DNA of 64,000 nucleotides from Candidatus Giovannonibacteria bacterium RIFCSPLOWO2_02_FULL_43_54 (GTDB lineage: Bacteria; Patescibacteriota; Minisyncoccia; UBA11713; 2-01-FULL-45-33). Where the stretch lies: positions 2,033 through 66,032 of the forward strand of contig MFIK01000041.1 of the NCBI GenBank assembly GCA_001778875.1, read 5' to 3'. The position numbers and the translations under genes are program-made. The notes below the pieces were generated by a model. That model was not told the origin of the DNA and made no database searches. It saw only the letters and a list, made by a program, of their open reading frames with translations. Of this stretch, positions 14,034 through 27,662 are shown one piece after another (position 1 is the stretch's first letter; every line of letters begins with the position of its first letter).

Positions 14034-15512
14034 TTACAATTCTTGGCGGTAAAGCATTCCTTCCAGTTTACGGAGATCGGAATGAAGTGAGCGGTCTTTG
14101 TCTATGAACGGAATATTCACGGCAAGATTTTCAAAAAAGTTTCTTGTCGGAGGCGAGAGTTTGTCCTCGATCTTCAGCAATGAAACGGCTTGTCTTGTGG
14201 TAATCGCTAGCGCGGCGATAATGGTCCGCAACAAATCATTCATCCGCGTGGCGGAAAGCGCGCTGTTCATCCCCATGCTGACAATATCCTGATTACTAGC
14301 CTCGCCATCGCTCATCGTAAACAGCGATTCCGCAATTGCCTCTTTGCACAGGGAATTATAGACCGATTCTATCGAAAGCCCCGTAAGCCCTTGTAAGCCG
14401 TTGTGTAAACTATCGTTTCCCGCAACCAAATACATCGGCAATGTGTCGTGATTCAGCTTCGAATCGGTCGTACTTCTGATGTATGCACGGGCGATTTCTC
14501 CGGTTCTTTTCATTGAAAGCTTGAGGCAATTCATCGCATCCGCGACGTAAGACCCGTCAAAATGCCCGCCATGCCCTATATCGTTTCCTATGATGACTGG
14601 GTTATCGGAAACGCTGTTTAATTCATCTTCAACCATATGCGCCGAATCTCTGATTCTATGCACAATTGGCCCCAAAATTTGCGGCAGGCATCTTAAAGAA
14701 TATCTGTCCTGAATCGGATCGGTTTCTTTCAGCTCTGTCGGCGACAGATTTATCACGTCTTCAATCTTTCTCAAAGATTTGCTGCCTTCCAGGGCGCGCG
14801 TGAAAATTTCCGCAATCTCCCTTTGCTCTTTGTGCTTCTTTAGCAAGTGAAGTTTTTTAGCAAAAACATTTTCGATACCTCTGTGGCACTGGAACAAAAT
14901 TGCAATCAGTTCCTGTAATATGCTTAGGATATAAGTAAAATCTATCAAAGCCAGAGCGGAAATGCCTGTCATAAAATGGGTGCCGTTCACAAGAGCCAAC
15001 CCTTCTCTTCCTTCAAGCACAAGTTTTTCCATAAATTGCATCGGGATATAGGAAGAAGGCACAAGATCTCCGCTGTTTCCGATGGATCCAAGCGACGGAA
15101 TTTCAGGAATAGAATTCTGATTGAGCATGTCGGTCAAAACGTCTAAAATTTCCATTCTTACGCCGGAATGTCCCTGTCCCAAAACCAAAAGACGCACGAA
15201 TATCGCTGCGCGAACCTGATCTGCTACAAGATTCGGCCCCGACCCGCAATTTAAGGAAAATACCAAATTCCTCTGCTTCTCTTTGTCTTTTTCGGGCGGA
15301 ACATAAAACCGGACCCGCTCACCGTACCCGGTGCCGTCACCGTAAATAATCTTTACTACGCGCATGCGCATATAATTCGCATGGGCTGTGTATATTTTTT
15401 GAGCGCGCGCTCCGTCTTTTTTTAGAAGGATTTTTTCCAATTTTCTAGCCACATCAAAAACATCAAGCAAAGAAATGCGGCCGGCCGGAGGAACGATCAT
15501 TGAAGACTCCAT
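14034..15512 (-). CDS. Aromatic amino acid ammonia-lyase family protein (HAL/PAL/TAL-like) with NSG in place of the canonical ASG MIO-forming triad
   Basis: Colinear with histidine ammonia-lyase (GSIGNSGDLVPSSY vs GSVGASGDLAPLAH; QDRYSLRCLPQILG vs QDPYSLRCQPQVMG; SDNPVII vs SDNPLVF); 492 aa. Confidence 0.75.
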   Translation of the reverse strand: MESSMIVPPAGRISLLDVFDVARKLEKILLKKDGARAQKIYTAHANYMRMRVVKIIYGDGTGYGERVRFYVPPEKDKEKQRNLVFSLNCGSGPNLVADQVRAAIFVRLLVLGQGHSGVRMEILDVLTDMLNQNSIPEIPSLGSIGNSGDLVPSSYIPMQFMEKLVLEGREGLALVNGTHFMTGISALALIDFTYILSILQELIAILFQCHRGIENVFAKKLHLLKKHKEQREIAEIFTRALEGSKSLRKIEDVINLSPTELKETDPIQDRYSLRCLPQILGPIVHRIRDSAHMVEDELNSVSDNPVIIGNDIGHGGHFDGSYVADAMNCLKLSMKRTGEIARAYIRSTTDSKLNHDTLPMYLVAGNDSLHNGLQGLTGLSIESVYNSLCKEAIAESLFTMSDGEASNQDIVSMGMNSALSATRMNDLLRTIIAALAITTRQAVSLLKIEDKLSPPTRNFFENLAVNIPFIDKDRSLHSDLRKLEGMLYRQEL

Positions 15513-15531
15513 AAGTCTATCTCCAGATTAC

Positions 15532-15559
15532 TTGTCAAAATATCTGCTTTGACTATACT
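15532..15559 (+). promoter_or_regulatory. Candidate promoter for the acyl-CoA ligase gene (TTGTCA-N16-TATACT), followed by Shine-Dalgarno TAGGAGGA
   Basis: Near-consensus hexamers in the divergent intergenic region. Confidence 0.4.
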
Positions 15560-15583
15560 ACCGGTAGGAGGAATTGCAATCCT

Positions 15584-17071
15584 ATGGAACCCTTGACAAT
15601 TTGGGAAACTTTTGAGAGAAGTAAAAGTTTTTTTTCCGATAAAACCGCGATACTTTTTGTTAACGCAGAAGGCAAAGAAGAGGCATATTCTTACCACAAA
15701 CTTTCTTATGATACAGAAGTTTTTGCGCGTGGCTTAAAAGAGAGCGGTATAGGCAAGGGAGATAATGTTTGTCTGTGTTTGTCCAATTCCCCGCTTATGA
15801 TAACAGCTTATCTGGCCCTATCTAAATTGGGAGCGGTATCGGTGTTGATTAATCCGGTCTTGCCCAAAAACCGCGTTAAGAAAATCGTTGAAGATGTTTC
15901 CGCCAAATTACTGATAGACCAAAATGGAGCAGGAGAAGTATTTTCTAAAGCGCATTCTCTCGTGGCTTTGACTTGCGGCGCGACGAAAGCGGATTGCGGT
16001 CCGTTGGACACCGCGGCTATCCTTTATTCTTCGGGAACAACCGGCGAACAAAAAGGCGCCGAGCTTACGGTAAGCAATATTCACAGCAATATCAGCTACA
16101 CAAGCGCGCTTACAGGAATGACCCCCGAAGACAGAATGATTTGTTTTCTTCCTCTTACCCATTGCTTCGGGCTCAATTTTATTTTGGGAGCTTGCTTGTA
16201 TACCGGCGCTACTTTGGTGCTCCACGAAAAATTCGATTTGTCGCTGGTTTTGGATTCGCTCGTCAAAAATAAAGTCACCATGTTTTTCGCGGTTCCGCAG
16301 ATTTACAACATGATGCTGAAACAAAAGATTGGTCCGTTTTATTTTTCTTCCGTCAGATACTTTTTCTACGCCGCGGATTCAATGTCCGTCGATTCAATTC
16401 TGGCGTGGGAACAAGAATATGGCAGGAAAATTTATACAGGCTGGGGGCTTACGGAAACCTCACCTTTTGCAACTTCAAATCACGAAGTAATCTATAAGCT
16501 TGGCAGCGTCGGCAAGCAGATTCCCGGAGTTGATGTGAAAGTTGTTGATGAACACAGCGCCGAGTTAAAGATGAAAAAAGCGACAGATATCGAAAACAAG
16601 AGCGGTTTCTTTGGTGAAATATGCGTAAAAGGGCATAACGTGATGAAAGGTTATTGGAACCGTCCGCAAGAAACGGCGGAGGCCATTGATCGCGAAGTAT
16701 GGTTTCACACAGGAGACATCGGGTATATTGATCATGAAGGGTATCTTTTCATCGTTGACCGCCTGAAAGACATGATTAATGTCGGCGGTGAAAAAGCATG
16801 GCCCGCGGAAATTGAAAAGATAATTTTACAGCACCCGGAAGTGGCCGAAGTCGGAGTTGTTGGCGTACCCAATGAAAAAATGGGAGAGGTGCCGAAAGCT
16901 TTCGTGGTCGCCAAAAATCCTGCATTAACCGCGGAAGAAATACATTTTTTTCTGAATCATCCAGAGCCGCAATTATCCAAGCACGAATTCCCGCGTGAGA
17001 TCGAATTCATAGACAAGCTCCCGCGCAATCCGTCAGGAAAAATTTTGCGGAGAGAGTTAAGGGGCAAGTAG
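15584..17071 (+). CDS. AMP-dependent acyl-CoA ligase (4-coumarate/aryl-CoA or fatty-acid CoA ligase family)
   Basis: AMP-binding motif YSSGTTGEQKG; GWGLTETS; C-terminal GDIGYIDHEGYLFIVDRLKDMINVGGEKAWP; 495 aa. Confidence 0.85.
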   Translation: MEPLTIWETFERSKSFFSDKTAILFVNAEGKEEAYSYHKLSYDTEVFARGLKESGIGKGDNVCLCLSNSPLMITAYLALSKLGAVSVLINPVLPKNRVKKIVEDVSAKLLIDQNGAGEVFSKAHSLVALTCGATKADCGPLDTAAILYSSGTTGEQKGAELTVSNIHSNISYTSALTGMTPEDRMICFLPLTHCFGLNFILGACLYTGATLVLHEKFDLSLVLDSLVKNKVTMFFAVPQIYNMMLKQKIGPFYFSSVRYFFYAADSMSVDSILAWEQEYGRKIYTGWGLTETSPFATSNHEVIYKLGSVGKQIPGVDVKVVDEHSAELKMKKATDIENKSGFFGEICVKGHNVMKGYWNRPQETAEAIDREVWFHTGDIGYIDHEGYLFIVDRLKDMINVGGEKAWPAEIEKIILQHPEVAEVGVVGVPNEKMGEVPKAFVVAKNPALTAEEIHFFLNHPEPQLSKHEFPREIEFIDKLPRNPSGKILRRELRGK

Positions 17072-17102
17072 CCCCTTTTTGTTATATTGTTATAATGAAA
17101 TT

Positions 17103-17510
17103 ATGAAAATCATCAAGATCATTTTTATAGTAATTGCTTTTTTGATAGCCGCATTGGTTGCTTTTTGGCGTTTTGCTCCGACTCGGATGATAGAAAAAGC
17201 AGCTGACAACATCGGATCTGCGGCAACCACACTTTGCCAATATCCGGTCAGGGTTAGTGGCGATGCAATGATGCCTATTTTCCAAAATGGGCAACTAGCC
17301 ATATTTTCTAAATGCATAGAAGACCGTAACAATATCGCGCCTGATGCTATAATTTTATATGAACGACCGGGAGGAACATTGCGCATTTCAGTAGTCCGCG
17401 AGCAAATCAGAGACACGAACGGCATTATGTACCGCGTTTCACAAGAAGCGCGCCAAAATGAAATTGACGAAACGCGTTCTGACAGAATCGTCGCGATTTA
17501 TAATAAATAA
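17103..17510 (+). CDS. Membrane-anchored S24/S26-family serine peptidase (LexA/signal-peptidase-like fold)
   Basis: N-terminal transmembrane helix; VRVSGDAMMPIFQNGQLAIF resembles the S24 nucleophile region; start taken at the internal ATG after the upstream stop. Confidence 0.45.
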   Translation: MKIIKIIFIVIAFLIAALVAFWRFAPTRMIEKAADNIGSAATTLCQYPVRVSGDAMMPIFQNGQLAIFSKCIEDRNNIAPDAIILYERPGGTLRISVVREQIRDTNGIMYRVSQEARQNEIDETRSDRIVAIYNK

Positions 17511-17526
17511 ACGGGATAAATTAGCA

Positions 17527-18594
17527 ATGGATCAGAAATTAGGTCTTATGCCAATAGCGCTCTTAATTTTAGTTCTCGCTGTTCTAGGAGTTGGCGGTGC
17601 GACCCTCTTTTATCCTAAAAAGCGCGTGTTTGCGCCACCGCAAATTTTTCAAGAGCAACAAGAAAAAACGAACACGTACCCAAACCAACTTGAAAATAAT
17701 ATTACCGCGCCAACGCCTTCTACGGCTCCAGCCGCAAAACCATCTGAAAATCAGCCAAGCAAACCAAAACCGTTGCCGCCTCTACCGCCAAAACCCGCAA
17801 CACCAAATTCTCTGACGCCAACTCCAAATCCCTCGACGCCAAGCGTGCCGGCTTATACACTCGTGGCGCATACAGGTGAAGTATTTGGCGCCAAAATTCC
17901 GCGTGGCTGGCGGGTAGAATCAAACCAAAGCGGGATAGATATTATTGATCCCGCCGACGCGGACACAGGAGTATCCGGAGTAGTCGCTGTAGGCTGGTTC
18001 GGCACTCAAACGCCGGACGGCTTCATTGATTTTTTGCTTCAATCCATAGGAGCATCAAATATTAAAACCGAAAACGAATCTACCGAGGCGGTTTACAATG
18101 ATCAGTCAACCGGTCTTCCTTGGGTTGTAAAAACCAGAACATTTACTTTTGTAAAAGGTGGAAAGACGCTGAAAGCCAAAGCAAGCGCCGGCGTTATGAA
18201 TGGTTACGGCCAATATATTGCCTTGATGACAGCATTCCAAACAACGCCGGAAAAATGGAGCCAATGGGCGCCGACACTTGAACGCATCGCGAAATCAATC
18301 ACTATAATCAACCCATCTATGGCCGGAGGTGCACACACCGTTCGTCTTCCTACAGCAGCAGACCTCGCAAACGATTCATCGCCACTGATGGAAGCGTGGG
18401 AATACCGAAATCGCTCGGAAGCGCAAACGTCTCACGAGTTTTCCGATGCTATCATGGGACAGGAAACCGATTTGATTTCTCCTTCGACCGGTCAAATCTA
18501 TACAGTGCCTTTTAGCGCGTATGACCCGACTAAAGGCGGATATCATAACCCAAATAATTACGGTGAAATCCTTGTTGATCCGTATCAGAAATAA
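17527..18594 (+). CDS. Membrane-anchored protein with a Pro/Thr-rich linker and a C-terminal globular domain
   Basis: Transmembrane helix LMPIALLILVLAVLGVGG followed by PTPSTAPAAKPSENQPSKPKPLPPLPPKP; start at the internal ATG after the upstream stop. Confidence 0.5.
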   Translation: MDQKLGLMPIALLILVLAVLGVGGATLFYPKKRVFAPPQIFQEQQEKTNTYPNQLENNITAPTPSTAPAAKPSENQPSKPKPLPPLPPKPATPNSLTPTPNPSTPSVPAYTLVAHTGEVFGAKIPRGWRVESNQSGIDIIDPADADTGVSGVVAVGWFGTQTPDGFIDFLLQSIGASNIKTENESTEAVYNDQSTGLPWVVKTRTFTFVKGGKTLKAKASAGVMNGYGQYIALMTAFQTTPEKWSQWAPTLERIAKSITIINPSMAGGAHTVRLPTAADLANDSSPLMEAWEYRNRSEAQTSHEFSDAIMGQETDLISPSTGQIYTVPFSAYDPTKGGYHNPNNYGEILVDPYQK

Positions 18595-18599
18595 AAAAA

Positions 18600-18624
18600 T
18601 TGACGATCCGGGATCGTCAATTTT
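18600..18624. terminator. Bidirectional intrinsic terminator (TTGACGATC-cgg-GATCGTCAA flanked by A7 and T4)
   Basis: 21-nt near-perfect palindrome between convergent genes. Confidence 0.6.
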
Positions 18625-19024
18625 GAATACGTTTCTTGCTTATCCATGCCGGAGTACGGCAATTTTCAATTTGATCTTTCGGATGTCCGGTATAAGGTTT
18701 TATATCAAGCACAGGGCTTCCTTTATACGCATCAATGCCGTCGATTTTTAAAAAATTTCCATGGCGCCTGATTAATTTCACAATGCTTAATCCTATCGGA
18801 TTCGGGCGATATGGCATGCGCGTAGCGAGCACTCCCTTTAATTGATTTATATTACACGGCTTTGCTCTTTTCATCCAACGTTTTTCCGGAGTCACTTCGT
18901 GCATCCAGTATAAAACGATGATATGTGAAAATCCGCTTATGCCGTCAAGCGCCTCATTCCATTCATGCGCAACCTCGATCGTCGACTTATCAAGAACAAC
19001 GCCTATCGGTTTCAAAGATATCAT
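18617..19024 (-). CDS. trmO: TsaA/YaeB-family tRNA methyltransferase (TrmO-like)
   Basis: MISLKPIGVV...GVLATRMPYRPNPIGLSIVKL matches the TsaA family core; start taken at the internal ATG whose codon overlaps the stop of the upstream SDR gene. Confidence 0.65.
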   Translation of the reverse strand: MISLKPIGVVLDKSTIEVAHEWNEALDGISGFSHIIVLYWMHEVTPEKRWMKRAKPCNINQLKGVLATRMPYRPNPIGLSIVKLIRRHGNFLKIDGIDAYKGSPVLDIKPYTGHPKDQIENCRTPAWISKKRIQN

Positions 19025-19794
19025 GCCAGAAATCCCCCATCGACGCGGATGACTTCTCCGGTCAAAAATTGCGGGGCAGATGTTGCGAGCCAATAAATAA
19101 CTTCGGCAATCTCTTCGGGTTTTCCCAGGCGGCCGAATGGAGTGGCAAGCTTATATCCAGCCACCATTTTTTCAGAAAGCTGTTTCGCCATATCCGTATC
19201 AACAATTCCAGGCGCCACAGCATTCACCGCGATATCGTGCGGCGGGCCGTTTTTATTGAACGGCGCTTCTTTTGCAAGAGCTCTCGTAAGCTGTACGACA
19301 GCTGCTTTGGATGCGGAATAAATCATGTTTCCGGGGTCGGCCATGAAAGCAGAAATTGAAGCTACATTAACGATTCGCCCGTAGCCGTTTGCCTGCATGA
19401 ACGGTAATACGGACTGGCACAACTTTGCGGTACCCCAGAAATTCACGGCCATTATTTTATGCACAGCGTCAAGGTCGGTCTTTATGAGCGGGGTCATAAT
19501 TTGCGGTGCGATACCCGCGACATTGATCAAGATATCTATTTTATTACATACAATGATAAGAGACCTAAACCATTGGTTAGCATTTAAATCGGTTAAGTCA
19601 AAACAATAATTCAAAAATCTCTCGCGCTTTATGGATGTTGGAAGTGATGCAATAAATACGTCTAAATATTCGCGTTTGTTTGGCTGATCAATCAATACAA
19701 GTTTTTGAAAATTTTTATCGTCGGCAAAACACTTGACGACCGCTTGTCCTATTCCTCCCGCTGCTCCGGTTATCAAAACGGTTTTTTGGGCCAT
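19021..19794 (-). CDS. Short-chain dehydrogenase/reductase (3-oxoacyl-reductase-like)
   Basis: Rossmann motif VLITGAAGGIGQAV; NVAGIA; catalytic YSASKAA; 257 aa. Confidence 0.8.
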   Translation of the reverse strand: MAQKTVLITGAAGGIGQAVVKCFADDKNFQKLVLIDQPNKREYLDVFIASLPTSIKRERFLNYCFDLTDLNANQWFRSLIIVCNKIDILINVAGIAPQIMTPLIKTDLDAVHKIMAVNFWGTAKLCQSVLPFMQANGYGRIVNVASISAFMADPGNMIYSASKAAVVQLTRALAKEAPFNKNGPPHDIAVNAVAPGIVDTDMAKQLSEKMVAGYKLATPFGRLGKPEEIAEVIYWLATSAPQFLTGEVIRVDGGFLA

Positions 19795-19885
19795 GTTATT
19801 CTCCTCTCAAGGTTATTTTCGTCTATTGGAGTTTTAGCTTATTTGCGCTAGCTTGTAAAGAGATTTGAGAATTATTGGTGTTTTT

Positions 19886-21034
19886 ATGGCTAAGGCGCGA
19901 AAAAACGACTCGTTCATTATAGCGGCGAAACGACTGCCTATCGGCAAACGAAAAGGAATGTTCAAAAAATTTACCGCGGAAACTCTCGCGGCGGCAGTCA
20001 TCAGGAGCATTATCAGAATAGATCATGGCTATATTGATGATGTTATTATCGGTAATTATGGCGGTGTTTATGAATTACCTGATGGAACACTGTGTCTTAA
20101 ACAAAATCCTGCGAAGCAGGCGGTAACGGAAGCGGGTTTCGGATCTCTCAACGCATGGACTCTCAACAAAGTTTGTAGTTCGGGACTCCGGTCCGTAATG
20201 CTTGCGGACTCGATGATACGCGCGGGGCATGCTAAGTGCGTGCTTGCCGGCGGGATGGAAAGTTTGAGCGGATTTTCAAAAGAAAATATTTTGGCGCTTC
20301 TTCGCGACCCTTTTGACGGCTATATGGCATATGAAGCCGGCGAATGGTGTGCGGAAAAATTCGGCATTGGAAGAGATGAACAGGACGATTGGGCAATAGA
20401 AAGCTACAAAAAAGCGCGCTTCGCCGTAAATTCAGATATTTTCCAAGAAGAGATATTGTCGTTTAACGGAATGTATAAAGATGAAGAGCCGCTCATCGGT
20501 CCGGATGAAAAATATATTCTTTCCGATAAAACTATTTTTGAAATATTGAACAAAACTGTCGGCGGGACAATCACCGCAAGTAATGCCTCAAAAAACGCTG
20601 ACGGAACAGCGATGTGTTTAGTGGCAAACGAAACAATCGCGAAAATGCCGGGGCTTCAGCCCCTCGGCAGAATTTTGGAACATGCTTCATATGCTCACCA
20701 TGGAGATACCAAGAGTTTTACTATCGCTCCGCCGTTCGCTATCCGCCTTGCGGTTGAAAAAGCCGGCTTGAAGATTAGCGACATTGATTTTTTTGAAATA
20801 AACGCCGCTTTTGCTTCCGTAGTGCTTTACGCGATGTGCGCGCTCAAACTTCCGGCAGAAAAAGTTAATGTAAATGGAGATGCGATTTCTTTTGGGCACC
20901 CTATCGGCGCGACCGGGACAATTTTGCTGATCAAAATGCTATATTTTTTAAAACACAGTGGCGCGAGATATGGCGTTGTCAGTCTTTGTAATGCCGGAGG
21001 CGAAGCCACAGCTATGGTGGTTGAAAGCTTTTGA
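19886..21034 (+). CDS. Thiolase (acetyl-CoA C-acyltransferase family)
   Basis: Active-site Cys region NKVCSSGLRSVMLA; C-terminal GHPIGATG and CNAGGEATA motifs; start at the ATG inside the listed ORF. Confidence 0.85.
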   Translation: MAKARKNDSFIIAAKRLPIGKRKGMFKKFTAETLAAAVIRSIIRIDHGYIDDVIIGNYGGVYELPDGTLCLKQNPAKQAVTEAGFGSLNAWTLNKVCSSGLRSVMLADSMIRAGHAKCVLAGGMESLSGFSKENILALLRDPFDGYMAYEAGEWCAEKFGIGRDEQDDWAIESYKKARFAVNSDIFQEEILSFNGMYKDEEPLIGPDEKYILSDKTIFEILNKTVGGTITASNASKNADGTAMCLVANETIAKMPGLQPLGRILEHASYAHHGDTKSFTIAPPFAIRLAVEKAGLKISDIDFFEINAAFASVVLYAMCALKLPAEKVNVNGDAISFGHPIGATGTILLIKMLYFLKHSGARYGVVSLCNAGGEATAMVVESF

Positions 21035-21087
21035 GCACAAAACAAAAAACCTGTCCTGATTATGGATCGGCTTTTTTTTATTAATTT

Positions 21088-21119
21088 CCTCACTTAGCAA
21101 TCCGATTGCTAAGTGAGGA
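21088..21119. repeat. 32-nt perfect palindrome CCTCACTTAGCAATC-cg-GATTGCTAAGTGAGG overlapping the yraN stop codon
   Basis: 15-bp arms; related to the second palindrome inside yraN. Confidence 0.6.
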
Positions 21120-21498
21120 TAATATTTTCCAGCATCCGGATTCTAGCCTTTTTACGCTCAAAATCAAGGAAAACGGCGGCGATGTCGATTTGGAAATCGG
21201 TTTCATCAGGAATCTTTCTGTCCAATAGATATGTCTTGATCGCGCGCGTTAGCCTTTGTTTTTTCCATAATCTCATATTGGCCTCCGGCATATATTCGCT
21301 CACTTGGAAACCCGGTTTCCAAGTGAGCGATTTCACCTCAATAAAGTGCAATCCGTCCTTATTTTGAGCCACAATATCGATTTCTCCCCATTTCTTCAAA
21401 TAGTTTCTTTCAACAATTTTATATCCCCTACCCTTCAGAAATCGGCAAGTGAATTCTTCCCCAATATCTCCTATTTTTCGTTTTTCTGATTTCGGCAT
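21109..21498 (-). CDS. yraN: YraN/UPF0102-family endonuclease-like protein
   Basis: GEEFTCRFLKGRGYKIVERNYLKKWGEIDIVAQ...HFIEVKS fits the YraN family; 129 aa. Confidence 0.65.
   Translation of the reverse strand: MPKSEKRKIGDIGEEFTCRFLKGRGYKIVERNYLKKWGEIDIVAQNKDGLHFIEVKSLTWKPGFQVSEYMPEANMRLWKKQRLTRAIKTYLLDRKIPDETDFQIDIAAVFLDFERKKARIRMLENIILT
21297..21329. repeat. 33-nt perfect palindrome CGCTCACTTGGAAAC-ccg-GTTTCCAAGTGAGCG, in-frame inside yraN (encodes SLTWKPGFQVSE)
   Basis: 15-bp arms with a 3-nt loop; about 70% identical to the palindrome at the gene 3-prime end. Confidence 0.6.
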
Positions 21499-21500
21499 TA

Positions 21501-22238
21501 TTAATCCTTAGCATTATCCCAGCTCATTTTCCAAATATTGCGGAACGTATCGGACAAATCTTTGTTTTCTATGATTAAACCTATTTCGTCTTTGCTCGAA
21601 AAAATGGCTATTTTATCGTCATAAATCATGATTTCGTTGGTTATATGATACTTATTTTCCGGAAAAATCCTCGCATTTCTCAAAACTAGTTCACCAATTT
21701 CTTGAGCGTGCTTACCTGCGGGGTTATCCGGCGCTAAGCCGCGAACCGATATTTTGCGTCGAGCTCGTTCGTAAACATATCGGTCAACATATTTTTTGCC
21801 CAAAACCGACTCAATATCTTCAGGATTCGTAAATGTCAAAATCTCGCTTTTTGAGTTTAACGAATCGTCATAGATTGATTTAATCCCACCAATCCCTTCA
21901 AAAAAGTAGATTTTTGGTTTTTTGGCTATTTTGTTTGCGCCAGCCAAAAATTCTGGAACAGCCGCCTCGGCTAGAGCCAGTTTTTCTTTGACTTGTTTCA
22001 CAATAATACGCGGATCTACTGCCACAAAATGTTTTTTTTTCTTTTTTAAAAATATCCGCACAATACCACGCTTTTCCAGCCGCTTCAAAATCTCGTAATT
22101 TGTGATCCTATTTAATCTTGTCCGATTGGAAATTTGGGTATTTGAGCCGTCATCAAGCTCCAAGCAAGCCAAATATACAGTAGCTTCTTTGTCGTCAAAC
22201 CCAATCCCTTCAAGTATTTTTTGTAAATTTTCAGCCAT
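21501..22238 (-). CDS. TrmB-family transcriptional regulator (N-terminal wHTH plus C-terminal sensor domain)
   Basis: N-terminus LEGIGFDDKEATVYLACLELDDGSNTQISNRTRLNRITNYEILKRLEKRGIV matches the TrmB HTH; 245 aa. Confidence 0.6.
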   Translation of the reverse strand: MAENLQKILEGIGFDDKEATVYLACLELDDGSNTQISNRTRLNRITNYEILKRLEKRGIVRIFLKKKKKHFVAVDPRIIVKQVKEKLALAEAAVPEFLAGANKIAKKPKIYFFEGIGGIKSIYDDSLNSKSEILTFTNPEDIESVLGKKYVDRYVYERARRKISVRGLAPDNPAGKHAQEIGELVLRNARIFPENKYHITNEIMIYDDKIAIFSSKDEIGLIIENKDLSDTFRNIWKMSWDNAKD

Positions 22239-22327
22239 TGTCGTAAATTATTTCTACAATATTTAGTATATATTATCCTTATAAAATAAGCAAGTTTTGA
22301 TATGCGAACCAATTTTAGTAAAAGATA

Positions 22328-22356
22328 TTGACCTAATTTAAATTTTAAGCTAAGAT
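22328..22356 (+). promoter_or_regulatory. Candidate promoter TTGACC-N17-TAAGAT with downstream Shine-Dalgarno GGAGG for ORF 22390
   Basis: Consensus-like hexamers in the divergent intergenic region. Confidence 0.35.
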
Positions 22357-22389
22357 ATAGCCAGAAGAATCTGAAATGGAGGAAAAACA

Positions 22390-22839
22390 ATGACCGGACA
22401 ATACTTGTTGGATTTAACTTCAAATTTTGGCGATCCTTTTCCATTCCATAATGTGATGCCGATGCATCCTTTTGACAAAATAAATTGGCAAACCACTATG
22501 CGCTGGGCAAATATATATTTAGTTGCTTACAAGACTAAACAAACTAATAAAAAGGTTATGCATGATTTTGTTAAATTTGCTAGAGGCATGGCAGAAAAGC
22601 CACCGCATCATAGCCTCAAGTCACTATGGAATCTGCGTGAATATTTTGGAATATTAGAACAACACCCTCGTTGTAAAGAATGTGGCCTGGAGATCGCAGG
22701 AACCTCTAGTTTATGGGATCTGGATTATTTTGAAAGAGTTCTTCTTAAACAGCCTAAAAAATATGATTATTTTTTCGAGAATTATCTTTTACCTGAAAAA
22801 TGGGTTTTGTATTATATAAAAAGCCGATCTATAGGCTAA
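22390..22839 (+). CDS. Hypothetical protein (149 aa) containing a CxxC pair
   Basis: ORF with upstream Shine-Dalgarno; no recognisable family. Confidence 0.4.
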   Translation: MTGQYLLDLTSNFGDPFPFHNVMPMHPFDKINWQTTMRWANIYLVAYKTKQTNKKVMHDFVKFARGMAEKPPHHSLKSLWNLREYFGILEQHPRCKECGLEIAGTSSLWDLDYFERVLLKQPKKYDYFFENYLLPEKWVLYYIKSRSIG

Positions 22840-22844
22840 ATACA

Positions 22845-22890
22845 AAAACTCCGATATGAATCGGAGTTTTCTTGTTTCATATGAAACAAG
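22845..22890. terminator. Two adjacent hairpins between convergent genes: AAAACTCCGA(tatgaa)TCGGAGTTTT and the 20-nt palindrome CTTGTTTCATATGAAACAAG
   Basis: Perfect inverted repeats with an A-run and T-run on either side; likely bidirectional terminator. Confidence 0.55.
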
Positions 22891-22909
22891 GGCTTTTCTT
22901 TTACACTTG

Positions 22910-24328
22910 TCAAAGCGTGTTCCAAATCAGTTTGTACAGATTATCAAATCCACGGCAGGACATGATACAAATCGCGTCCCCAGGCTTAATTTGACGTTTC
23001 ATGTGTAACAACATTGGCTTAATATCTTCAAAATTCCATGATTTCACCTGCCTACCGGTAGACAAGGCGTGTAACTTATTAAGCTGGGATGATACATATT
23101 TACCATTAAACGTTTCACGCTTTTTAAGAGAGTTGGCTTTAAAAGGCTTGTAAAGATAAACTAAATCGGCACGTTTGAAAGATTCAATGTATTGTTTCTC
23201 GAACACCCTTCGCTTCGATGAAGCAGAGCCGGGTTCAAACACACAGATAATACGTTTCATGGGAAACTTTTCTCGTACGGCATCGAGCGTAAGGCGTACG
23301 GCAGTTGGGTGATGCGCATAATCATCAATTATAGTTATTCCGTTTTTCTCTCCAATAATTTCTTGTCTGCGTTTTACGCCTTCAAATGATTCAATGGCTT
23401 TTTTAATTTTCGCATCCGGAATTTTTAAGAACTTGGCAATCGCAATCGCCCCAAGAATATTTGAGATATTGTACTTACCGATCAGCTTTGTTCGTATGTC
23501 CGATAGTGCGTGTCCATTATAATGGACATCGAAAGAAATATAATCGCCGGTAAATTTAATATTTCTTGCTTTATAATCTCCGCTTTTTACCCCATAGGTT
23601 GCGATAGGGGATTTGGCCATTTTTTGGCTTAAAATAAGGGTGTTTTTGTTTTCACATGAAACAGCTATCAGGCCGTTTTGAGGTATTAAATTTATGAATC
23701 TTCCGAATGCAAATTTGATGGCATCAAGGTCTTTATAAATATCTACATGGTCTAATTCGATATTATTTACTAAACCAATGAATGGGCGGTAATGCCAGAA
23801 TTTAGGACCTTTATCAAAAAATGCCGTATCGTATTCATCGCCTTCCAAAACAACGTATTTTCCTTTGCCCAATTTAAAACTTGAGTTAAAGTTTTTTGCC
23901 AAACCGCCAACAAAAACTGTTGGATCCAACTTTGCATATTCCAATATCCAACTCACTAAAGCCGTGATGGTTGTTTTGCCATGCGTGCCAGCAATCACAA
24001 TAGATTTTTTACCCTCAATAAATTCAGATCGAAGTATATCGGACATTGACCGATAGAGAAGTCCGTTAGAAATTGCTAATTCAAGTTCCGGATTTCCTCT
24101 GCCTATTGCGTTACCTACAACTACGATGTCCGGCTTCCAGCGTTTCATATGAAACCCATTATATGGTGTAAATACAGGTATTTTTAAGGATCTCAACATA
24201 TCTGACATTGGTGGGTAGACATCCTGATCGGATCCAGCAACCTCATATCCTTTCTTTTTCAAGAGCCCTGCAAGGCTGGCCATGGCAACGCCAGCAATTC
24301 CAATCAAATAATATTTTTTCTTCTGCAT
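22910..24328 (-). CDS. mpl: Mur ligase family protein, Mpl-like (UDP-N-acetylmuramate:L-Ala-D-Glu-meso-DAP ligase) or MurC
   Basis: N-terminus YYLIGIAGVAMASLAGLLKKKGYEVAGSDQDVYPPMSDML (Mpl signature DxNVYPPMS); ATP site GTHGKTT; 472 aa. Confidence 0.7.
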   Translation of the reverse strand: MQKKKYYLIGIAGVAMASLAGLLKKKGYEVAGSDQDVYPPMSDMLRSLKIPVFTPYNGFHMKRWKPDIVVVGNAIGRGNPELELAISNGLLYRSMSDILRSEFIEGKKSIVIAGTHGKTTITALVSWILEYAKLDPTVFVGGLAKNFNSSFKLGKGKYVVLEGDEYDTAFFDKGPKFWHYRPFIGLVNNIELDHVDIYKDLDAIKFAFGRFINLIPQNGLIAVSCENKNTLILSQKMAKSPIATYGVKSGDYKARNIKFTGDYISFDVHYNGHALSDIRTKLIGKYNISNILGAIAIAKFLKIPDAKIKKAIESFEGVKRRQEIIGEKNGITIIDDYAHHPTAVRLTLDAVREKFPMKRIICVFEPGSASSKRRVFEKQYIESFKRADLVYLYKPFKANSLKKRETFNGKYVSSQLNKLHALSTGRQVKSWNFEDIKPMLLHMKRQIKPGDAICIMSCRGFDNLYKLIWNTL

Positions 24329-25500: not shown

Positions 25501-27006
25501 TTACCTGCTTTGAAGCAGATATTCTTTGGCGCTTTCCAGCAAATGTTCCGTTTCCGCGTGGTATTTATTTGGCCACTTTAGGCGGATTTGATCGAAAATA
25601 AGATCACGCAAAAGTTCCGAATTTTGGAAAATCATAAATTCTTTAGGCCATTCCTTGGAAAACTCGCTTTTTATGAGATCCCATGCGGCCACCAAAGGCA
25701 TGATATTCGCGGTTTTTGCAGAAAGCCTTTGGTTTTTGAGTTTTAAGAAATTTCCGCCTCCCATTTCGACTTTAAGCCTGTGTTTCAGCTCCATAAGCTC
25801 CAAATGCTCCACATAAGCAGAAAACAAAAATTTGTTTTTGAACCATGCGTCTAAAATAACGCCGATCTGGACTTCCGACGCGCCTTCATAAATGTCAAAA
25901 ACAAGACTGTCCGCGACAAGCGGCGTTATCGGAGTTTCCATAACATATCCAGATCCTCCAAAAATTCGGTTTACCGCCTGAATTCTCTTTCTCGCGGCTT
26001 GCGATGCGTAAAGCTTAGCCAGCGATGCGTAATGATAAAATTCCTTGCCTTCGTCCTCCAGTTTTGCCGAATAGAAAAGTAAAATTTTGGAAATATCTAT
26101 ATCTCGCGCCAGCTCGCTGATCTCATCATAAATTTTTGAATGATTAATCAGGGGCTCTCCGAAAGTTGTGCGAAGCTGCGCGTATTCTAAAGCCAGTTCC
26201 ATGGCGTGTTCCATAACGCCGATGGCCTGCGCCGCGATCCAGTTTCTTCCATGCGCGAGTGTTGACATTGCGATTTTGAAACCATTTTCGTATTCGCCGA
26301 AAAGATTACTCTCAAACAGATGATAATTATCAAAGAAAATTTTTCCCATATGCGCGGCGTGATTTCCTAGCTTGTGGTCCGGTAATGGAATGGTCAAACT
26401 TGGAGGAGTAGGCCTAAGAAGATGTGGCAAAAAAGCTGTAATGCCTTTGGGGCCCGGCTTATTACGATTGGTGCGGGCAAACAGGATAATAAACTCTGCG
26501 ACCGGTATGTTTGTGATGAATTGTTTTTGTCCGCTTGCCAGCCATCCTCCCACAACTTTTTCCGCGAAAGTTTTGATGCCTCCCGCGTCTGATCCGTAAT
26601 CCGGCTCCGTTAGCCCAAAGGAACCCAAAATTTTCCCCACAGCAAGACGCGGAAGATATGCTTCTTTTTGGCTCTTGCTTCCGAATTTTGAAAGGGGATA
26701 GCTGACAAGAGAATTTCCGACAGCAAGTATCAATGATCCGCCCGACCAAACTCTTGCCATCTCAATCATGGCAAGCACGCCGGACAAATTGTCCGCACCC
26801 TGCCCGCCAAATTCTTCCGGAATATTTATCCCGGTCAGCCCGAGCTCTGCCATCGCATGCACAAATTCCCATGGAAAAGGCGCCCCGTGAAATTCGTATT
26901 TTATGATCATTTCTTTGATGTCTTTTCGTATATTTTGCGTCTTTTCATCCCAAAGCCGGTGTCTGACGTTATTCCTCACCATCAGATGCTCTTCGGAAAA
27001 CTTCAT
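25501..27006 (-). CDS. Acyl-CoA dehydrogenase family protein with a ~100-aa C-terminal extension
   Basis: ACAD N/M/C-domain motifs (GLTEPDYGSDAGGIKT, QKQFITN, IFGGSGYVMETPI); 501 aa. Confidence 0.85.
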   Translation of the reverse strand: MKFSEEHLMVRNNVRHRLWDEKTQNIRKDIKEMIIKYEFHGAPFPWEFVHAMAELGLTGINIPEEFGGQGADNLSGVLAMIEMARVWSGGSLILAVGNSLVSYPLSKFGSKSQKEAYLPRLAVGKILGSFGLTEPDYGSDAGGIKTFAEKVVGGWLASGQKQFITNIPVAEFIILFARTNRNKPGPKGITAFLPHLLRPTPPSLTIPLPDHKLGNHAAHMGKIFFDNYHLFESNLFGEYENGFKIAMSTLAHGRNWIAAQAIGVMEHAMELALEYAQLRTTFGEPLINHSKIYDEISELARDIDISKILLFYSAKLEDEGKEFYHYASLAKLYASQAARKRIQAVNRIFGGSGYVMETPITPLVADSLVFDIYEGASEVQIGVILDAWFKNKFLFSAYVEHLELMELKHRLKVEMGGGNFLKLKNQRLSAKTANIMPLVAAWDLIKSEFSKEWPKEFMIFQNSELLRDLIFDQIRLKWPNKYHAETEHLLESAKEYLLQSR

Positions 27007-27122
27007 TTTTTGGTCCTTTCAATCTGCAAAAAATATAGCACCAGTTAGCATCAAGTACTATTGACAAGATTTATATACTATGATATTCTCAAAATAGAAA
27101 ATTTTCCCTACCGACAGGGCTC

Positions 27123-27310
27123 AATCCGAACACCTTAAATCTTGTTGTAGGATAAGGAATTTCCTGTAGAGGAACGGAGAAAGCGTAGAATTTTGTTGTA
27201 TTTTATACGTTTTCTTCGTTCCTTGAAAATTAGGAATGGTTGAATTTAGCTTGCAGAATTGGTCTGCAAGTGTTCGGATTCAAATGAGACATAAGGTTTC
27301 AGGAGGAAAA
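27123..27310 (+). ncRNA. Candidate structured 5-prime leader or cis-regulatory RNA upstream of a small ORF
   Basis: 10-nt long-range complementarity ATCCGAACAC (27123-27132) with GTGTTCGGAT (27270-27279) enclosing several local hairpins (TTCCTgtagAGGAA; GCAGAattggTCTGC); an AGGAGG Shine-Dalgarno follows; no match to a riboswitch class I can recognise. Confidence 0.25.
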
Positions 27311-27526
27311 ATGAAAATCGTTAATATCCGAATATACGATTTAACTGTGTTTATGAAAGAAGATTTTTTAGAAGTACCAAACAACCTGAATGTTAGTAAA
27401 GAAAAAAAAGATTGGCAAAAATCGCAAAAGGGTTTCAATTGTCAGTCTTTTGCAGATTATTTAATCAGTAGACGAGGAGCCAAAAGAGTGAACTTAGAAG
27501 TTTATTCAACTGAATATAAACGATGA
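27311..27526 (+). CDS. Small hypothetical protein (71 aa)
   Basis: Strong Shine-Dalgarno (CAGGAGGAAAA) 6 nt upstream of the ATG; followed by a terminator. Confidence 0.4.
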   Translation: MKIVNIRIYDLTVFMKEDFLEVPNNLNVSKEKKDWQKSQKGFNCQSFADYLISRRGAKRVNLEVYSTEYKR

Positions 27527-27555
27527 GCCTCCAAATGAGGCTTTTTTGTTTTTTT
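27526..27555 (+). terminator. Intrinsic terminator AGCCTC(caaat)GAGGCT plus T-run
   Basis: Hairpin followed by TTTTTGTTTTTTT. Confidence 0.6.
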
Positions 27556-27620
27556 AACTTAAATAAACAATCTTATCCGATCGGTTGCGTTTGTTTAGTT
27601 TGATCGGATATAGTTTGATT

Positions 27621-27662
27621 AAAAAAACGGCTAAGTGGCAGGCTTAGCCGTTTGTTTTTTTT
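27621..27662. terminator. Bidirectional terminator CGGCTAAG(tggcagg)CTTAGCCG flanked by A7 and T-rich runs; overlaps the meaB stop codon
   Basis: 8-bp perfect stem with flanking homopolymers. Confidence 0.55.

What the first reader, a model, noticed from the sequence alone, without database searches (positions are those of the whole stretch)
14034..17071. Divergent HAL/PAL-family lyase (with an NSG instead of ASG MIO triad) and aryl/acyl-CoA ligase pair
The 492-aa protein is clearly an aromatic amino acid ammonia-lyase family member, but the MIO-forming Ala-Ser-Gly is Asn-Ser-Gly (GSIGNSGDL). It is transcribed divergently from an ANL-family CoA ligase, the same logic as PAL/TAL plus 4-coumarate-CoA ligase pairs that make cinnamoyl- or coumaroyl-CoA. 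Such a module is unexpected in a genome of this style. Together with the thiolase/DUF35, PaaI thioesterase, SDR and ACAD genes nearby it could define an aromatic acid activation and beta-oxidation route.
Basis: partly seen in the sequence, partly recalled or inferred. Interest (0 to 1): 0.55.

Follow-up and report, generated by a model that had tools for sequence, protein, structure and literature searches.

The report
CPR lyase–CoA ligase gene pair
A tiny-genome (CPR, Giovannonibacteria) bacterium carries a very divergent phenylalanine/tyrosine-ammonia-lyase-type enzyme with Asn-Ser-Gly in place of the usual Ala-Ser-Gly cofactor motif; it is always paired with a CoA ligase and usually sits beside beta-oxidation enzymes, so it probably strips ammonia and acetyl-CoA from an aromatic amino acid.

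Summary
ORF 14034-15512(-) is a 492-aa PF00221 (MIO lyase family) protein with GSIG-N146-S147-G148-DL. It is transcribed divergently from a 495-aa ANL ligase, 15584-17071(+), across 71 bp that hold overlapping back-to-back promoters.

The Asn is not an error. NSG occurs in four 91-94%-identical variants from independent assemblies and in two distant relatives, and one relative has DSG. It is not a family trait either: 17 of 21 clade members have ASG.

The protein belongs to a very small, long-branched clade seen mostly in Giovannonibacteria/Patescibacteria. The clade lacks a ~23-aa hairpin after the MIO loop, has YGD, xL and HGGHFDG motifs, and keeps every catalytic residue. It is not HutH.

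The ligase co-occurs with the lyase throughout the clade. Its homologues sit beside MIO-enzyme genes in 31 of 80 loci from other phyla, so PAL/TAL + 4CL logic is well supported. An SDR + thiolase pair, or a FadB-like hydratase/dehydrogenase + thiolase, lies beside the pair in most relatives. This fits chain-shortening of an arylacryloyl-CoA.

Open points: no hydratase in this window, substrate unproven (Phe-like favoured), MIO formation from NSG untested, and no PaaI thioesterase found.

Verdict: a new variant of a known kind, of moderate interest.

The parts
14034..15512 (-). 492-aa MIO-family (class I lyase-like) enzyme, the divergent CPR clade; proposed aromatic amino acid ammonia-lyase
   Evidence: PF00221 E=7e-100; below every NCBIfam equivalog cut-off; AF2 pLDDT 93.3 and TM ~0.9 to SgTAM, AvPAL and RsTAL; catalytic residues Y57, S147, G148, D149, N176, Q268, Y271, R274, F318, N407 and Q408 invariant across 97 sequences
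15069..15077 (-). Codons for N146-S147-G148, the putative MIO-forming tripeptide (normally Ala-Ser-Gly)
   Evidence: Translates to NSG. Census of held family sequences: non-clade 237 ASG, 5 TSG, 1 SSG; clade 17 ASG, 3 NSG, 1 DSG
15003..15065 (-). Residues 150-170, the segment shortened by ~23 aa relative to other family members (clade-defining deletion of the hairpin after the MIO helix)
   Evidence: 21 residues between L150 and E170 in 19 of 22 clade sequences (22 in P0019, 26 in P0022; P0021 is a fragment), against a mode of 44 (183 of 243) in non-clade sequences
15513..15583 (.). 71-bp divergent intergenic region with overlapping back-to-back sigma-70-like promoters
   Evidence: Ligase promoter: -35 TTGTCA at 15532, -10 TATACT ending 15559. 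Lyase promoter: -35 TTGCAA at 15579, -10 TATAGT ending 15552. The TTGCAA...GTATAGTCAAA...TTTGACAAG block is conserved in W, L001 and L004, and its core (GTATAG...TTTGACAAG) also in L008, although the lyases are only 46-58% identical. GGAGG and GGAG Shine-Dalgarno sequences precede both start codons
15584..17071 (+). 495-aa ANL (AMP-forming) acyl-CoA ligase; proposed arylacrylate (cinnamate-type):CoA ligase
   Evidence: AMP-binding + AMP-binding_C. Best PDB match Nt4CL2 5bsw at 242 bits, against MenE, FadD13 and feruloyl-CoA synthetase at 213-215. Its clade P0121-P0154 lies on the same contigs as the lyase clade. Homologues lie next to MIO genes in 31 of 80 loci
17059..17077 (+). Intrinsic-terminator-like hairpin at the end of the ligase gene (the ligase looks monocistronic)
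   Evidence: 7-bp stem with 5 GC pairs followed by a T-run
19021..19794 (-). 257-aa classical SDR (FabG-like); candidate 3-hydroxyacyl-CoA dehydrogenase of the module
   Evidence: adh_short and adh_short_C2. Orthologues at 56-59% beside the pair in L001 and L004, a different SDR in L008, and a 3HCDH domain replacing it in L011. PDB relatives are generic FabG
19865..21034 (+). 389-aa thiolase (acetyl-CoA C-acyltransferase), divergent from the SDR
   Evidence: Thiolase_N and Thiolase_C; TIGR01930 scores 284.7 against a 240.55 cut-off. A thiolase lies beside the pair in L001-L006, L008 and L011

Best explanation
This is a CPR-specific version of the 'MIO lyase + arylacrylate-CoA ligase' module, coupled to a short beta-oxidation set. 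Proposed mechanism: (1) the 492-aa enzyme autocatalytically forms an MIO electrophile from N146-S147-G148. The side chain of the first residue is not part of the ring chemistry, so Asn or Asp can replace Ala. The enzyme then eliminates ammonia from an aromatic L-amino acid, most likely Phe or another non-phenolic substrate with a hydrophobic ring, to give the trans-2-enoic acid (cinnamate type). (2) The divergently co-transcribed ANL ligase converts that acid to the enoyl-CoA thioester. (3) Because the lyase has already installed the C2=C3 double bond, no acyl-CoA dehydrogenase is needed. Hydration, oxidation by the SDR 19021-19794 and thiolysis by the thiolase 19865-21034 would yield an aryl-CoA (benzoyl-CoA type) plus acetyl-CoA. 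This gives a fermentative, biosynthetically poor cell ammonia and a thioester for ATP. The hydratase is a FadB-like ECH fusion in some relatives and is unidentified in this genome. Shown: family membership, intact catalytic residues, conserved pairing, conserved promoters, and neighbourhood composition. Inferred: MIO formation, lyase rather than mutase chemistry, substrate identity, and the catabolic direction.
For: Family and fold. All residues needed for MIO formation and catalysis are invariant in 97 sequences. The motifs are PAL/TAL-class (QDRYSLRC, E-x-x-NQD, LALVNGT, invariant Leu at the second switch position), not HAL-class (SH, QDAYTLRC, SGGNFHG, NQED). The NJ tree places the clade with xL/FL-type sequences, outside the large SH group. 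The ligase family partners MIO genes across phyla: 31 of 80 loci, including a Saccharibacteria pair with a 58%-identical ligase. The best solved relative of the ligase is 4-coumarate-CoA ligase. Beta-oxidation enzymes recur by non-orthologous replacement: SDR + thiolase in W, L001-6 and L008; FadB-like (3HCDH + ECH) + thiolase in L011; and the same FadB-like gene beside the ligase in L007. Overlapping divergent promoters are conserved. The PAL -> CoA ligase -> hydratase/dehydrogenase -> thiolase route to benzoyl-CoA is established in plants (PMC8195509, listed but not read) and, from my own knowledge, in Streptomyces maritimus (EncP/H/I/J).
Against: No enoyl-CoA hydratase was found in the 64-kb window (Pfam; tblastn), and no Giovannonibacteria homologue of the FadB-like protein appeared among the top hits. 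The SDR and thiolase are generic FabG-like and acetoacetyl-CoA-thiolase-like proteins and could be an unrelated PhaA/PhaB-type pair. The P0017/L013 lineage has the lyase alone, and the Saccharibacteria pair has no beta-oxidation genes nearby. The first switch position varies (S/M/G/N/A/T) and matches no characterised specificity code. Several polar clade-specific residues near the MIO (D59, H179, H317, D319) have no characterised precedent among the sequences compared here. The best PDB sequence hit is an aminomutase (SgTAM). The ligase pocket residues F195 and F199 are shared with its 'fatty-acid ligase' relatives, so they do not discriminate. MIO formation from Asn-Ser-Gly has never been demonstrated, as far as my literature searches show.
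Confidence: 0.5

Rival explanations
1. The pair makes an arylacryloyl-CoA, but as an acyl donor or starter unit (for example for modifying a protein, lipid or small molecule, as TAL + p-coumaroyl-CoA ligase do for the photoactive yellow protein chromophore), or as an electron sink. It is not made for beta-oxidative breakdown, and the neighbouring SDR and thiolase are an independent acetoacetyl-CoA (PhaA/PhaB-like) pair.
For: The minimal conserved unit is lyase + ligase only. Saccharibacteria L031 has the pair with no SDR, thiolase or ECH. The cyanobacterial and other homologous pairs lie in different contexts. The SDR and thiolase are generic. No hydratase is present in this window.
Against: Dehydrogenase + thiolase functions recur next to the pair through non-orthologous replacement (SDR vs the FadB-like fusion, thiolases only 30-46% identical), which is hard to explain by inherited synteny alone. 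No acceptor, acyltransferase or PKS gene is seen nearby.
Confidence: 0.2
2. The enzyme is a 2,3-aminomutase, not a lyase. It makes a beta-aryl-beta-amino acid that the ligase activates as a beta-aminoacyl-CoA, as Taxus PAM + beta-phenylalanine-CoA ligase do.
For: The best sequence and structure match in the PDB is tyrosine aminomutase SgTAM. The clade's GFG-E65-R motif aligns with SgTAM's GYG-E-M. CoA-dependent handling of beta-amino acids is known (PMC4619459, listed).
Against: The score advantage of SgTAM over PAL, TAL and HAL structures is small (176 vs 165 vs 160 bits; TM is 0.89-0.91 for the bacterial TAM, PAL and TAL structures). The TAM and PAM equivalog models score far below their cut-offs (218 vs 501 and 249 vs 800). 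E65 is not conserved (14 E, 4 A, 3 D). The neighbouring hydratase/dehydrogenase/thiolase act on enoyl, hydroxy and keto thioesters, so a mutase followed by deamination would be a detour. Lyase and mutase cannot be told apart from sequence.
Confidence: 0.12
3. The NSG (and DSG) variants cannot form MIO. This copy is then either catalytically dead or decaying, or a MIO-less enzyme acting on a different substrate (as ergothionase does in this fold).
For: N or D at the first triad position was seen in 0 of 243 non-clade sequences. The module genes are far more diverged than their flanks between this genome and L001 (lyase 58%, thiolase 44%, flanks 82-88%), which is compatible with relaxed constraint. 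One lineage has lost the partner genes.
Against: Ser147, Gly148, Asp149, Phe318, Tyr271 and every other catalytic residue are intact in the NSG and DSG proteins. NSG is stably inherited in variants 91-94% identical and arose in at least three branches. The ORF is full length with a promoter and Shine-Dalgarno sequence. From general knowledge, the first residue's side chain is outside the imidazolone-forming chemistry, as in GFP-type chromophores where that position varies widely.
Confidence: 0.1
4. It is an ordinary histidine ammonia-lyase (HutH), mis-seen as unusual.
For: One public record names it 'Histidine ammonia-lyase'. The NCBIfam HAL subfamily model is nominally the top hit.
Against: 277 bits against a 524 cut-off, and hutH 255 against 539. 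Leu replaces the essential His83-equivalent in all 21 clade members. NQD replaces NQED, and HGGHFDG replaces SGGNFHG. No urocanase or imidazolonepropionase is present in the window. The NJ tree places it outside the SH group.
Confidence: 0.03

Closest known systems
Bacterial/plant PAL (or TAL) + cinnamate/4-coumarate:CoA ligase modules, including the beta-oxidative benzoyl-CoA route (plant PAL-CNL-CHD-KAT1; Streptomyces maritimus EncP/EncH/EncI/EncJ)
   Same: A MIO-family lyase adjacent to an ANL ligase. The best solved relative of the ligase is 4CL. A hydratase/dehydrogenase and a thiolase are associated in relatives. The lyase supplies the double bond, so no ACAD is needed.
   Different: The host is a CPR bacterium with a minimal genome. 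The lyase is <=34% identical to anything outside its clade, lacks the ~23-aa hairpin, and carries SL instead of FL/HL and HGGHFDG instead of GGNF(H/Q)G. No hydratase lies next to the pair in this genome. There is no downstream polyketide or phenylpropanoid machinery.
Streptomyces globisporus tyrosine 2,3-aminomutase SgTAM (PDB 2OHY, 2QVE, 3KDZ)
   Same: Top sequence (E=1.5e-50) and fold (TM 0.91) match. Shares the Y-G-x-x-T-G-[FY]-G-E inner-loop motif and the NQD motif.
   Different: 28% identity. SgTAM has Ser-His at the switch (His binds the phenol) where this clade has x-Leu. SgTAM keeps the hairpin and the ASG triad, and it works with an NRPS-type partner.
Histidine ammonia-lyase HutH (Pseudomonas putida 1B8F; TIGR01225)
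   Same: Same fold and MIO chemistry, similar length, Ser at the first switch position.
   Different: Lacks the His83 and Glu414 equivalents. Scores less than half the family cut-off. No hut operon. Partnered with a CoA ligase.
Saccharibacteria MIO enzyme + ligase pair (locus L031, uncharacterised)
   Same: Divergent arrangement with a ~100-bp gap. The ligase is 58% identical. The lyase also has YGD and SL motifs. CPR host.
   Different: The lyase is only 29% identical, keeps the 44-residue hairpin and has HTGNFSG. Its neighbours are an ELFV-type amino acid dehydrogenase rather than SDR and thiolase.

Membership tests
MIO-dependent aromatic amino acid lyase/aminomutase family (PF00221) | Profile match above the curated cut-off, and the family fold | tested here: met
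   335 bits against 27.3; AF2 pLDDT 93.3; Foldseek TM 0.9 to TAM, PAL and TAL structures
MIO-dependent aromatic amino acid lyase/aminomutase family (PF00221) | Ser-Gly of the MIO tripeptide followed by Asp, plus the Phe and Tyr needed for cyclisation (HAL S143, G144, D145, F329, Y280) | tested here: met
   S147, G148, D149, F318 and Y271 invariant in 97 aligned sequences
MIO-dependent aromatic amino acid lyase/aminomutase family (PF00221) | Ala (rarely Thr or Ser) as the first residue of the tripeptide | tested here: not met
   Asn146 here. Non-clade census: 237 ASG, 5 TSG, 1 SSG, no N or D
MIO-dependent aromatic amino acid lyase/aminomutase family (PF00221) | Catalytic base Tyr on the inner loop, carboxylate-binding Arg, and Asn/Gln around the MIO | tested here: met
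   Y57, R274, N176, Q268, N407 and Q408 invariant
MIO-dependent aromatic amino acid lyase/aminomutase family (PF00221) | A mature MIO cofactor is actually present | not testable with these tools
   Needs UV difference spectra, mass spectrometry or a crystal structure
Histidine ammonia-lyase HutH (TIGR01225 / NF006871) | Score above the equivalog or subfamily cut-off | tested here: not met
   255 against 539.15 and 277 against 524
Histidine ammonia-lyase HutH (TIGR01225 / NF006871) | Ser-His switch (His83) and the NQED (Glu414) motif | tested here: not met
   S86-L87 and N407-Q408-D409. HAL-like reference sequences show SH and (N)QED
Histidine ammonia-lyase HutH (TIGR01225 / NF006871) | Genomic association with urocanase and imidazolonepropionase | tested here: not met
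   None among the ORFs of the 64-kb window that were scanned, nor in 13 related loci
Phenylalanine ammonia-lyase (TIGR01226; FL switch) | Equivalog score and Phe-Leu at the selectivity switch | tested here: not met
   229 against 519. The switch is x-Leu with x = S/M/G/N/A/T; the Leu is invariant and the Phe is absent
Phenylalanine ammonia-lyase (TIGR01226; FL switch) | PAL/TAL-class motifs QDRY(A/S)LR, E-x-x-NQD and GLALVNGT | tested here: met
   QDRYSLRC, E404-x-x-N407-Q408-D409 and GLALVNGT. The PcPAL motif strings are recalled from memory; the class contrast with HAL-like sequences is
Tyrosine ammonia-lyase / tyrosine aminomutase (NF053541, NF041222, TIGR03832) | Equivalog score and a His at either switch position to bind the phenol | tested here: not met
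   274 against 700, 179 against 1000 and 218 against 501. No His at position 86 or 87 in any clade member
ANL superfamily acyl/aryl-CoA ligase of the 4CL-like type | AMP-binding + C-terminal domain, full-length alignment to 4CL | tested here: met
   Nt4CL2 5bsw residues 39-534 aligned to query residues 18-495, 242 bits
ANL superfamily acyl/aryl-CoA ligase of the 4CL-like type | Arylacrylate substrate specificity | not testable with these tools
   Indirect evidence only: adjacency to MIO genes in 31 of 80 loci. The pocket residues do not discriminate. NCBIfam PRK06187 'long-chain-fatty-acid-CoA ligase' scores 400 against 476, below its cut-off
Beta-oxidative phenylpropanoid chain-shortening pathway (lyase, ligase, hydratase, dehydrogenase, thiolase) | Enoyl-CoA hydratase present with the other genes | tested here: not met
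   None in this window. Present as a FadB-like ECH fusion beside the pair in relatives L007 and L011
Beta-oxidative phenylpropanoid chain-shortening pathway (lyase, ligase, hydratase, dehydrogenase, thiolase) | 3-hydroxyacyl-CoA dehydrogenase | tested here: inconclusive
   An SDR of generic FabG type. Its position is taken by a 3HCDH domain in L011
Beta-oxidative phenylpropanoid chain-shortening pathway (lyase, ligase, hydratase, dehydrogenase, thiolase) | 3-ketoacyl-CoA thiolase | tested here: met
   TIGR01930 scores 284.7 against 240.55. Substrate chain and aryl preference are unknown

The most novel reading that the evidence does not exclude
The Giovannonibacteria-type clade is a functionally new MIO-enzyme subfamily. 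Its remodelled active site (YGD, NGTHF, HGGHFDG, loss of the hairpin) tolerates or exploits an Asn- or Asp-derived MIO variant and acts on a non-canonical substrate. It would give ultra-small CPR bacteria an ACAD- and ETF-independent entry into beta-oxidation, harvesting both ammonia and acetyl-CoA from aromatic amino acids scavenged from hosts or necromass.
Probability: 0.12. Interest if true: 0.7.

Novelty: new variant of a known kind. Interest (0 to 1): 0.45.

Why it matters
CPR/Patescibacteria are thought to be metabolically minimal fermenters, and beta-oxidation-type metabolism was called unprecedented in them as recently as 2017 (PMC5220378). A lyase-initiated route that needs no flavin dehydrogenase would be a neat, low-cost way for such cells to obtain nitrogen and a high-energy thioester from aromatic amino acids. 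It would add a catabolic role to a gene pair usually linked to secondary metabolism.

For enzymologists, natural Asn-Ser-Gly and Asp-Ser-Gly triads sit alongside Ala-Ser-Gly in near-identical scaffolds. This is a ready-made experiment on how much the first residue matters for MIO biogenesis. A compact 490-aa scaffold lacking a surface hairpin could also interest biocatalysis.

The cross-phylum pairing found here also suggests that many proteins annotated 'long-chain fatty-acid-CoA ligase' are really arylacrylate-CoA ligases.

Tried and rejected
- Sequencing error: rejected. NSG appears in four independent variants and two distant relatives, and DSG in three sequences.
- NSG as the hallmark of the clade: rejected. 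17 of 21 members have ASG.
- Ordinary HutH: rejected.
- Hydratase search: Pfam at relaxed E-values on every unannotated ORF near the pair and across the window, plus tblastn with the ECH/FadB-like proteins of relatives, found none. A search with the FadB-like protein found only three close relatives and no Giovannonibacteria entry.
- PaaI thioesterase: searched for and not found.
- 4CL pocket mapping: Nt4CL2 Y239/S243 align with F195/F199, but these residues are shared with the non-CPR relatives, so nothing can be inferred.
- Fold search: could not separate TAM, PAL and TAL (all TM ~0.9).
- 3D pocket analysis: the model coordinates are not exposed, so pocket residues were mapped only through motifs.
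- Literature searches for CPR MIO enzymes, Asn-Ser-Gly or Thr-Ser-Gly MIO, and SgTAM Glu71 returned nothing usable.

Full report
**1. What is in the sequence**

ORF 14034-15512 (- strand, 492 aa) and ORF 15584-17071 (+ strand, 495 aa) exist as described and diverge across a 71-bp spacer.

- The first is an unambiguous member of the aromatic amino acid lyase family: PF00221, E=7e-100, 335 bits against a 27.3 cut-off.
- It reads SLGSIG-N146-S147-G148-DLVP where the family has Ala-Ser-Gly. Codons 15069-15077(-) translate to NSG.
- The second has the AMP-binding and AMP-binding_C domains of the ANL superfamily.
- The window comes from a CPR bacterium. Both proteins are 99-100% identical to entries from Candidatus Giovannonibacteria bacterium RIFCSPHIGHO2_02_43_13 and related assemblies, named 'hypothetical protein', 'Histidine ammonia-lyase' or 'Phenylalanine ammonia-lyase' depending on the source.

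**2. The Asn is real but not diagnostic**

- The exact protein occurs on 36 contigs. Four cluster variants at 91-94% identity all carry GSIGNSGDL.
- Two distant relatives (P0016 at 54% and P0019 at 46%) also have NSG. P0018 and its two variants have DSG.
- Within the clade, 17 of 21 sequences have the canonical ASG.
- So Asn or Asp at the first triad position is a genuine, recurrent polymorphism that, in this sample, only this clade shows.

**3. A tiny, isolated, remodelled clade**

- A word-indexed search of 5.8 billion proteins found about 22 relatives at 42-59% identity, then an abrupt drop to <=34%.
- A profile of the clade searched against 1.84 billion cluster representatives found only four clusters above 500 bits. 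The next hit scored 382 bits, among 9577 family hits.
- A scan of 185,579 species-representative genomes returned one clade member, a Patescibacteria MAG.
- In a neighbour-joining tree of 259 family members the clade is monophyletic (21 of 21). It sits on one of the longest internal branches (0.29; median 0.028).
- Its sister group is a mixed set of xL/FL-type sequences that includes a Saccharibacteria enzyme. It lies outside the large Ser-His group (no bootstraps, so weak).
- No curated subfamily model is reached: HAL 277 against 524, hutH 255 against 539, flexirubin TAL 274 against 700, PAM 249 against 800, PAL 229 against 519, TAM 218 against 501.

Features that define the clade:

- A deletion of ~23 residues immediately after the MIO helix. 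Nearly all members have 21 residues between L150 and E170, against a mode of 44 elsewhere.
- Y-G-D instead of Y-G-[IV] next to the catalytic Tyr.
- G-[FY]-G-E-R-V.
- NGT-H-F.
- H-G-G-H-F-D-G instead of G-G-N-F-[HQY]-G.
- An invariant Leu at the second 'selectivity switch' position, with a variable first position (S/M/G/N/A/T).

All residues known to be needed for MIO formation and catalysis are invariant: Y57, S147, G148, D149, N176, Q268, Y271, R274, F318, N407 and Q408. The AlphaFold model is confident (pLDDT 93.3) and superposes at TM ~0.9 on tyrosine aminomutase, Anabaena PAL and Rhodobacter TAL alike.

**4. Which kind of MIO enzyme?**

- HAL-like sequences in the same alignment (Thermoplasmatales, Peptoniphilaceae) show SH, QDAYTLRC, SGGNFHG and (N)QED.
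- This clade shows xL, QDRYSLRC and E-x-x-NQD, as PAL/TAL-class sequences do. Ordinary HutH is therefore excluded.
- By the published switch rule (FL = PAL; YH or HL = TAL; SH = HAL/TAM; PMC5651878, plus general knowledge), the absence of any His argues against Tyr or His. It favours a hydrophobic aromatic substrate such as Phe. The variable first position and several new polar residues near the MIO leave the substrate open.
- Lyase and aminomutase cannot be distinguished by sequence. The nominal top PDB hit is the aminomutase SgTAM, but only by about 10 bits over PAL.

**5. The ligase is a dedicated partner**

- The divergent ligase is present next to the lyase in relatives at 58% (L001-3), 48% (L004-6), 46% (L008) and 44% (L007) lyase identity, in otherwise rearranged surroundings.
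- The ligase forms its own clade (47-100% identity). The contig lengths of its members coincide one-for-one with those of lyase clade members.
- Its best solved relative is tobacco 4-coumarate-CoA ligase 2 at 242 bits, with 213-215 bits for MenE, FadD13 and feruloyl-CoA synthetase.
- The most telling result comes from the 80 MIO-gene loci fetched from other genomes. In 31 of them a full-length homologue (36-58% identity) of this ligase lies 0.1-2.1 kb from the MIO gene.
- Those loci include many cyanobacteria, a myxobacterium, Chloroflexota, Chitinophagales and Bacteroidota. One is a Saccharibacteria contig where the ligase is 58% identical and divergent, although its lyase is only 29% identical to ours.
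- These are the same proteins that sources label 'long-chain fatty-acid-CoA ligase'. The ligase family is thus a habitual partner of MIO lyases, which is strong indirect evidence that it activates the lyase's acrylate product.
- Pocket residues did not add discrimination.

**6. Regulation**

- The 71-bp spacer holds two face-to-face sigma-70-like promoters. Their -10 boxes overlap on opposite strands and each -35 box lies near the other gene's start.
- Ligase promoter: TTGTCA-16-TATACT. Lyase promoter: TTGCAA-16-TATAGT.
- This block is conserved in W, L001 and L004, and its core also in L008.
- A terminator-like hairpin closes the ligase gene at 17059-17077.
- Both genes have Shine-Dalgarno sequences.

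**7. Downstream chemistry**

- In this window an SDR (19021-19794, -) and a thiolase (19865-21034, +; TIGR01930 above its cut-off) form a second divergent pair 2 kb from the ligase.
- They are separated from the ligase by a membrane S24/S26-like protein, a secreted Pro-rich protein and a TrmO_N-only protein.
- An SDR-thiolase pair also lies beside the lyase-ligase pair in L001-6 and L008. The L008 copies are only ~33% identical to ours.
- In L011/L012 the lyase is followed instead by a 731-aa FadB-like fusion (3HCDH_N + ECH_1) and a thiolase.
- In L007 the gene next to the ligase is the C-terminal (ECH) part of the same FadB-like protein, at 57% identity.
- Taken together, the neighbourhoods supply hydratase, 3-hydroxyacyl-CoA dehydrogenase and thiolase. 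These are exactly what is needed after an enoyl-CoA, and no ACAD is required because the lyase creates the double bond.
- This matches the established PAL-CNL-CHD-KAT1 route of plants (PMC8195509, listed but not read). From my own knowledge it also matches EncP/H/I/J of Streptomyces maritimus.

**8. Gaps and caveats**

- No enoyl-CoA hydratase is present in this 64-kb window. The FadB-like protein has no visible homologue from this organism.
- The SDR and thiolase are generic.
- One lineage (P0017/L013) carries the lyase alone.
- The Saccharibacteria pair has an ELFV-type dehydrogenase, not beta-oxidation genes, beside it.
A PaaI thioesterase was not found.

**9. Conclusion**

The best-supported reading (about 0.5) is a CPR variant of the MIO-lyase + arylacrylate-CoA ligase module feeding a short beta-oxidation to aryl-CoA + acetyl-CoA and releasing ammonia.

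| Rival reading | Confidence |
|---|---|
| The thioester is used for something other than catabolism | 0.2 |
| The enzyme is an aminomutase | 0.12 |
| The NSG/DSG forms are MIO-less or inactive | 0.1 |
| Ordinary HutH | 0.03 |

It is a new variant of a known kind. It is interesting for CPR physiology, where beta-oxidation is rare (PMC5220378), and for MIO biogenesis, but it does not break a paradigm.

Noticed in passing
window 25501-42364: A dense acyl-CoA and organic-acid block that is unusual for a CPR genome. It holds an ACAD (25501-27006), MeaB GTPase (27631-28374), a fused MCM/ICM-like B12 mutase (28374-30413), 2-oxoacid dehydrogenase E2 (30912-31595) and fused E1 (31900-33963), a PEP-mutase/isocitrate-lyase-like protein (34843-35832), DUF35 + SCPx-type thiolase (36299-38216), a PaaX_M-domain protein (38358-38951) and a second ANL enzyme without a recognisable C-domain (40658-42364). 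An H+-pyrophosphatase follows at 43896-45923. It suggests branched-chain or odd-chain acyl-CoA fermentation.
   Followed up: partly
window 14034-24328 vs L001: Between this genome and the L001 genome the flanking housekeeping genes are 82-88% identical (Mur ligase, TrmB-like, UPF0102, a 149-aa protein). The module genes are much more diverged: ligase 78%, lyase 58%, SDR 56%, thiolase 44%. The module is either fast-evolving or exchanged among lineages.
   Followed up: no
L031 7396-11931 (Saccharibacteria MAG): A divergent ligase-lyase pair in another CPR lineage. The ligase is 58% identical to the window's, but the MIO enzyme only 29% (it has YGD and SL but keeps the hairpin). An ELFV-family (Glu/Leu/Phe/Val) dehydrogenase is the next gene, and an ELFV dehydrogenase also lies next to the module in L008. 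This may link the module to handling of the released ammonia or to amino acid deamination.
   Followed up: partly
L040-L092 (Nostoc, Microcoleus, Tychonema, Enhygromyxa, Chloroflexota, Bacteroidota loci): MIO enzymes (the sampled 569-aa Nostoc proteins carry a Tyr-His switch) are followed within 0.1-2.1 kb by a ~40%-identical homologue of this ligase, and in several by an SDR. The ligases carry the public name 'long-chain fatty acid-CoA ligase', which is probably a systematic mis-annotation of arylacrylate-CoA ligases.
   Followed up: partly
window 17079-19093: Three genes lie between the ligase and the SDR: a membrane-anchored S24/S26 peptidase-like 143-aa protein, a 378-aa secreted Pro-rich protein with no family match, and a 158-aa TrmO_N-only protein co-directional with the SDR. 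The first and third are 74-76% identical to genes in the same relative position in L004.
   Followed up: no
L004 5821-6243: A Trp-repressor-family (PF01371) gene lies directly downstream of the ligase in the DSG-carrying relative. It is a possible hint at an aromatic amino acid effector, but this family is common in CPR and Firmicutes.
   Followed up: no
L014-L034, L041, L051 (Legionella / Fluoribacter spp.): A conserved Legionella MIO enzyme (32% identical). The copy examined (L015) has an S-L switch and HSANFMG, and no strongly similar ligase lies nearby. It appears to be an uncharacterised specificity type.
   Followed up: no
P0241 (2535 aa), P0259, P0295, P0310, P0352, P0373: The best non-clade profile hits include very long proteins with an embedded MIO domain (for example residues 618-1120 of a 2535-aa protein, with an HL switch). 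These are presumably fusions to other enzyme modules.
   Followed up: no
window 49469-57929: A type IV pilus gene set (T2SSE ATPase, T2SSF platform, several N-methyl pilin-like ORFs, PilM), typical of CPR cell-cell attachment machinery.
   Followed up: no
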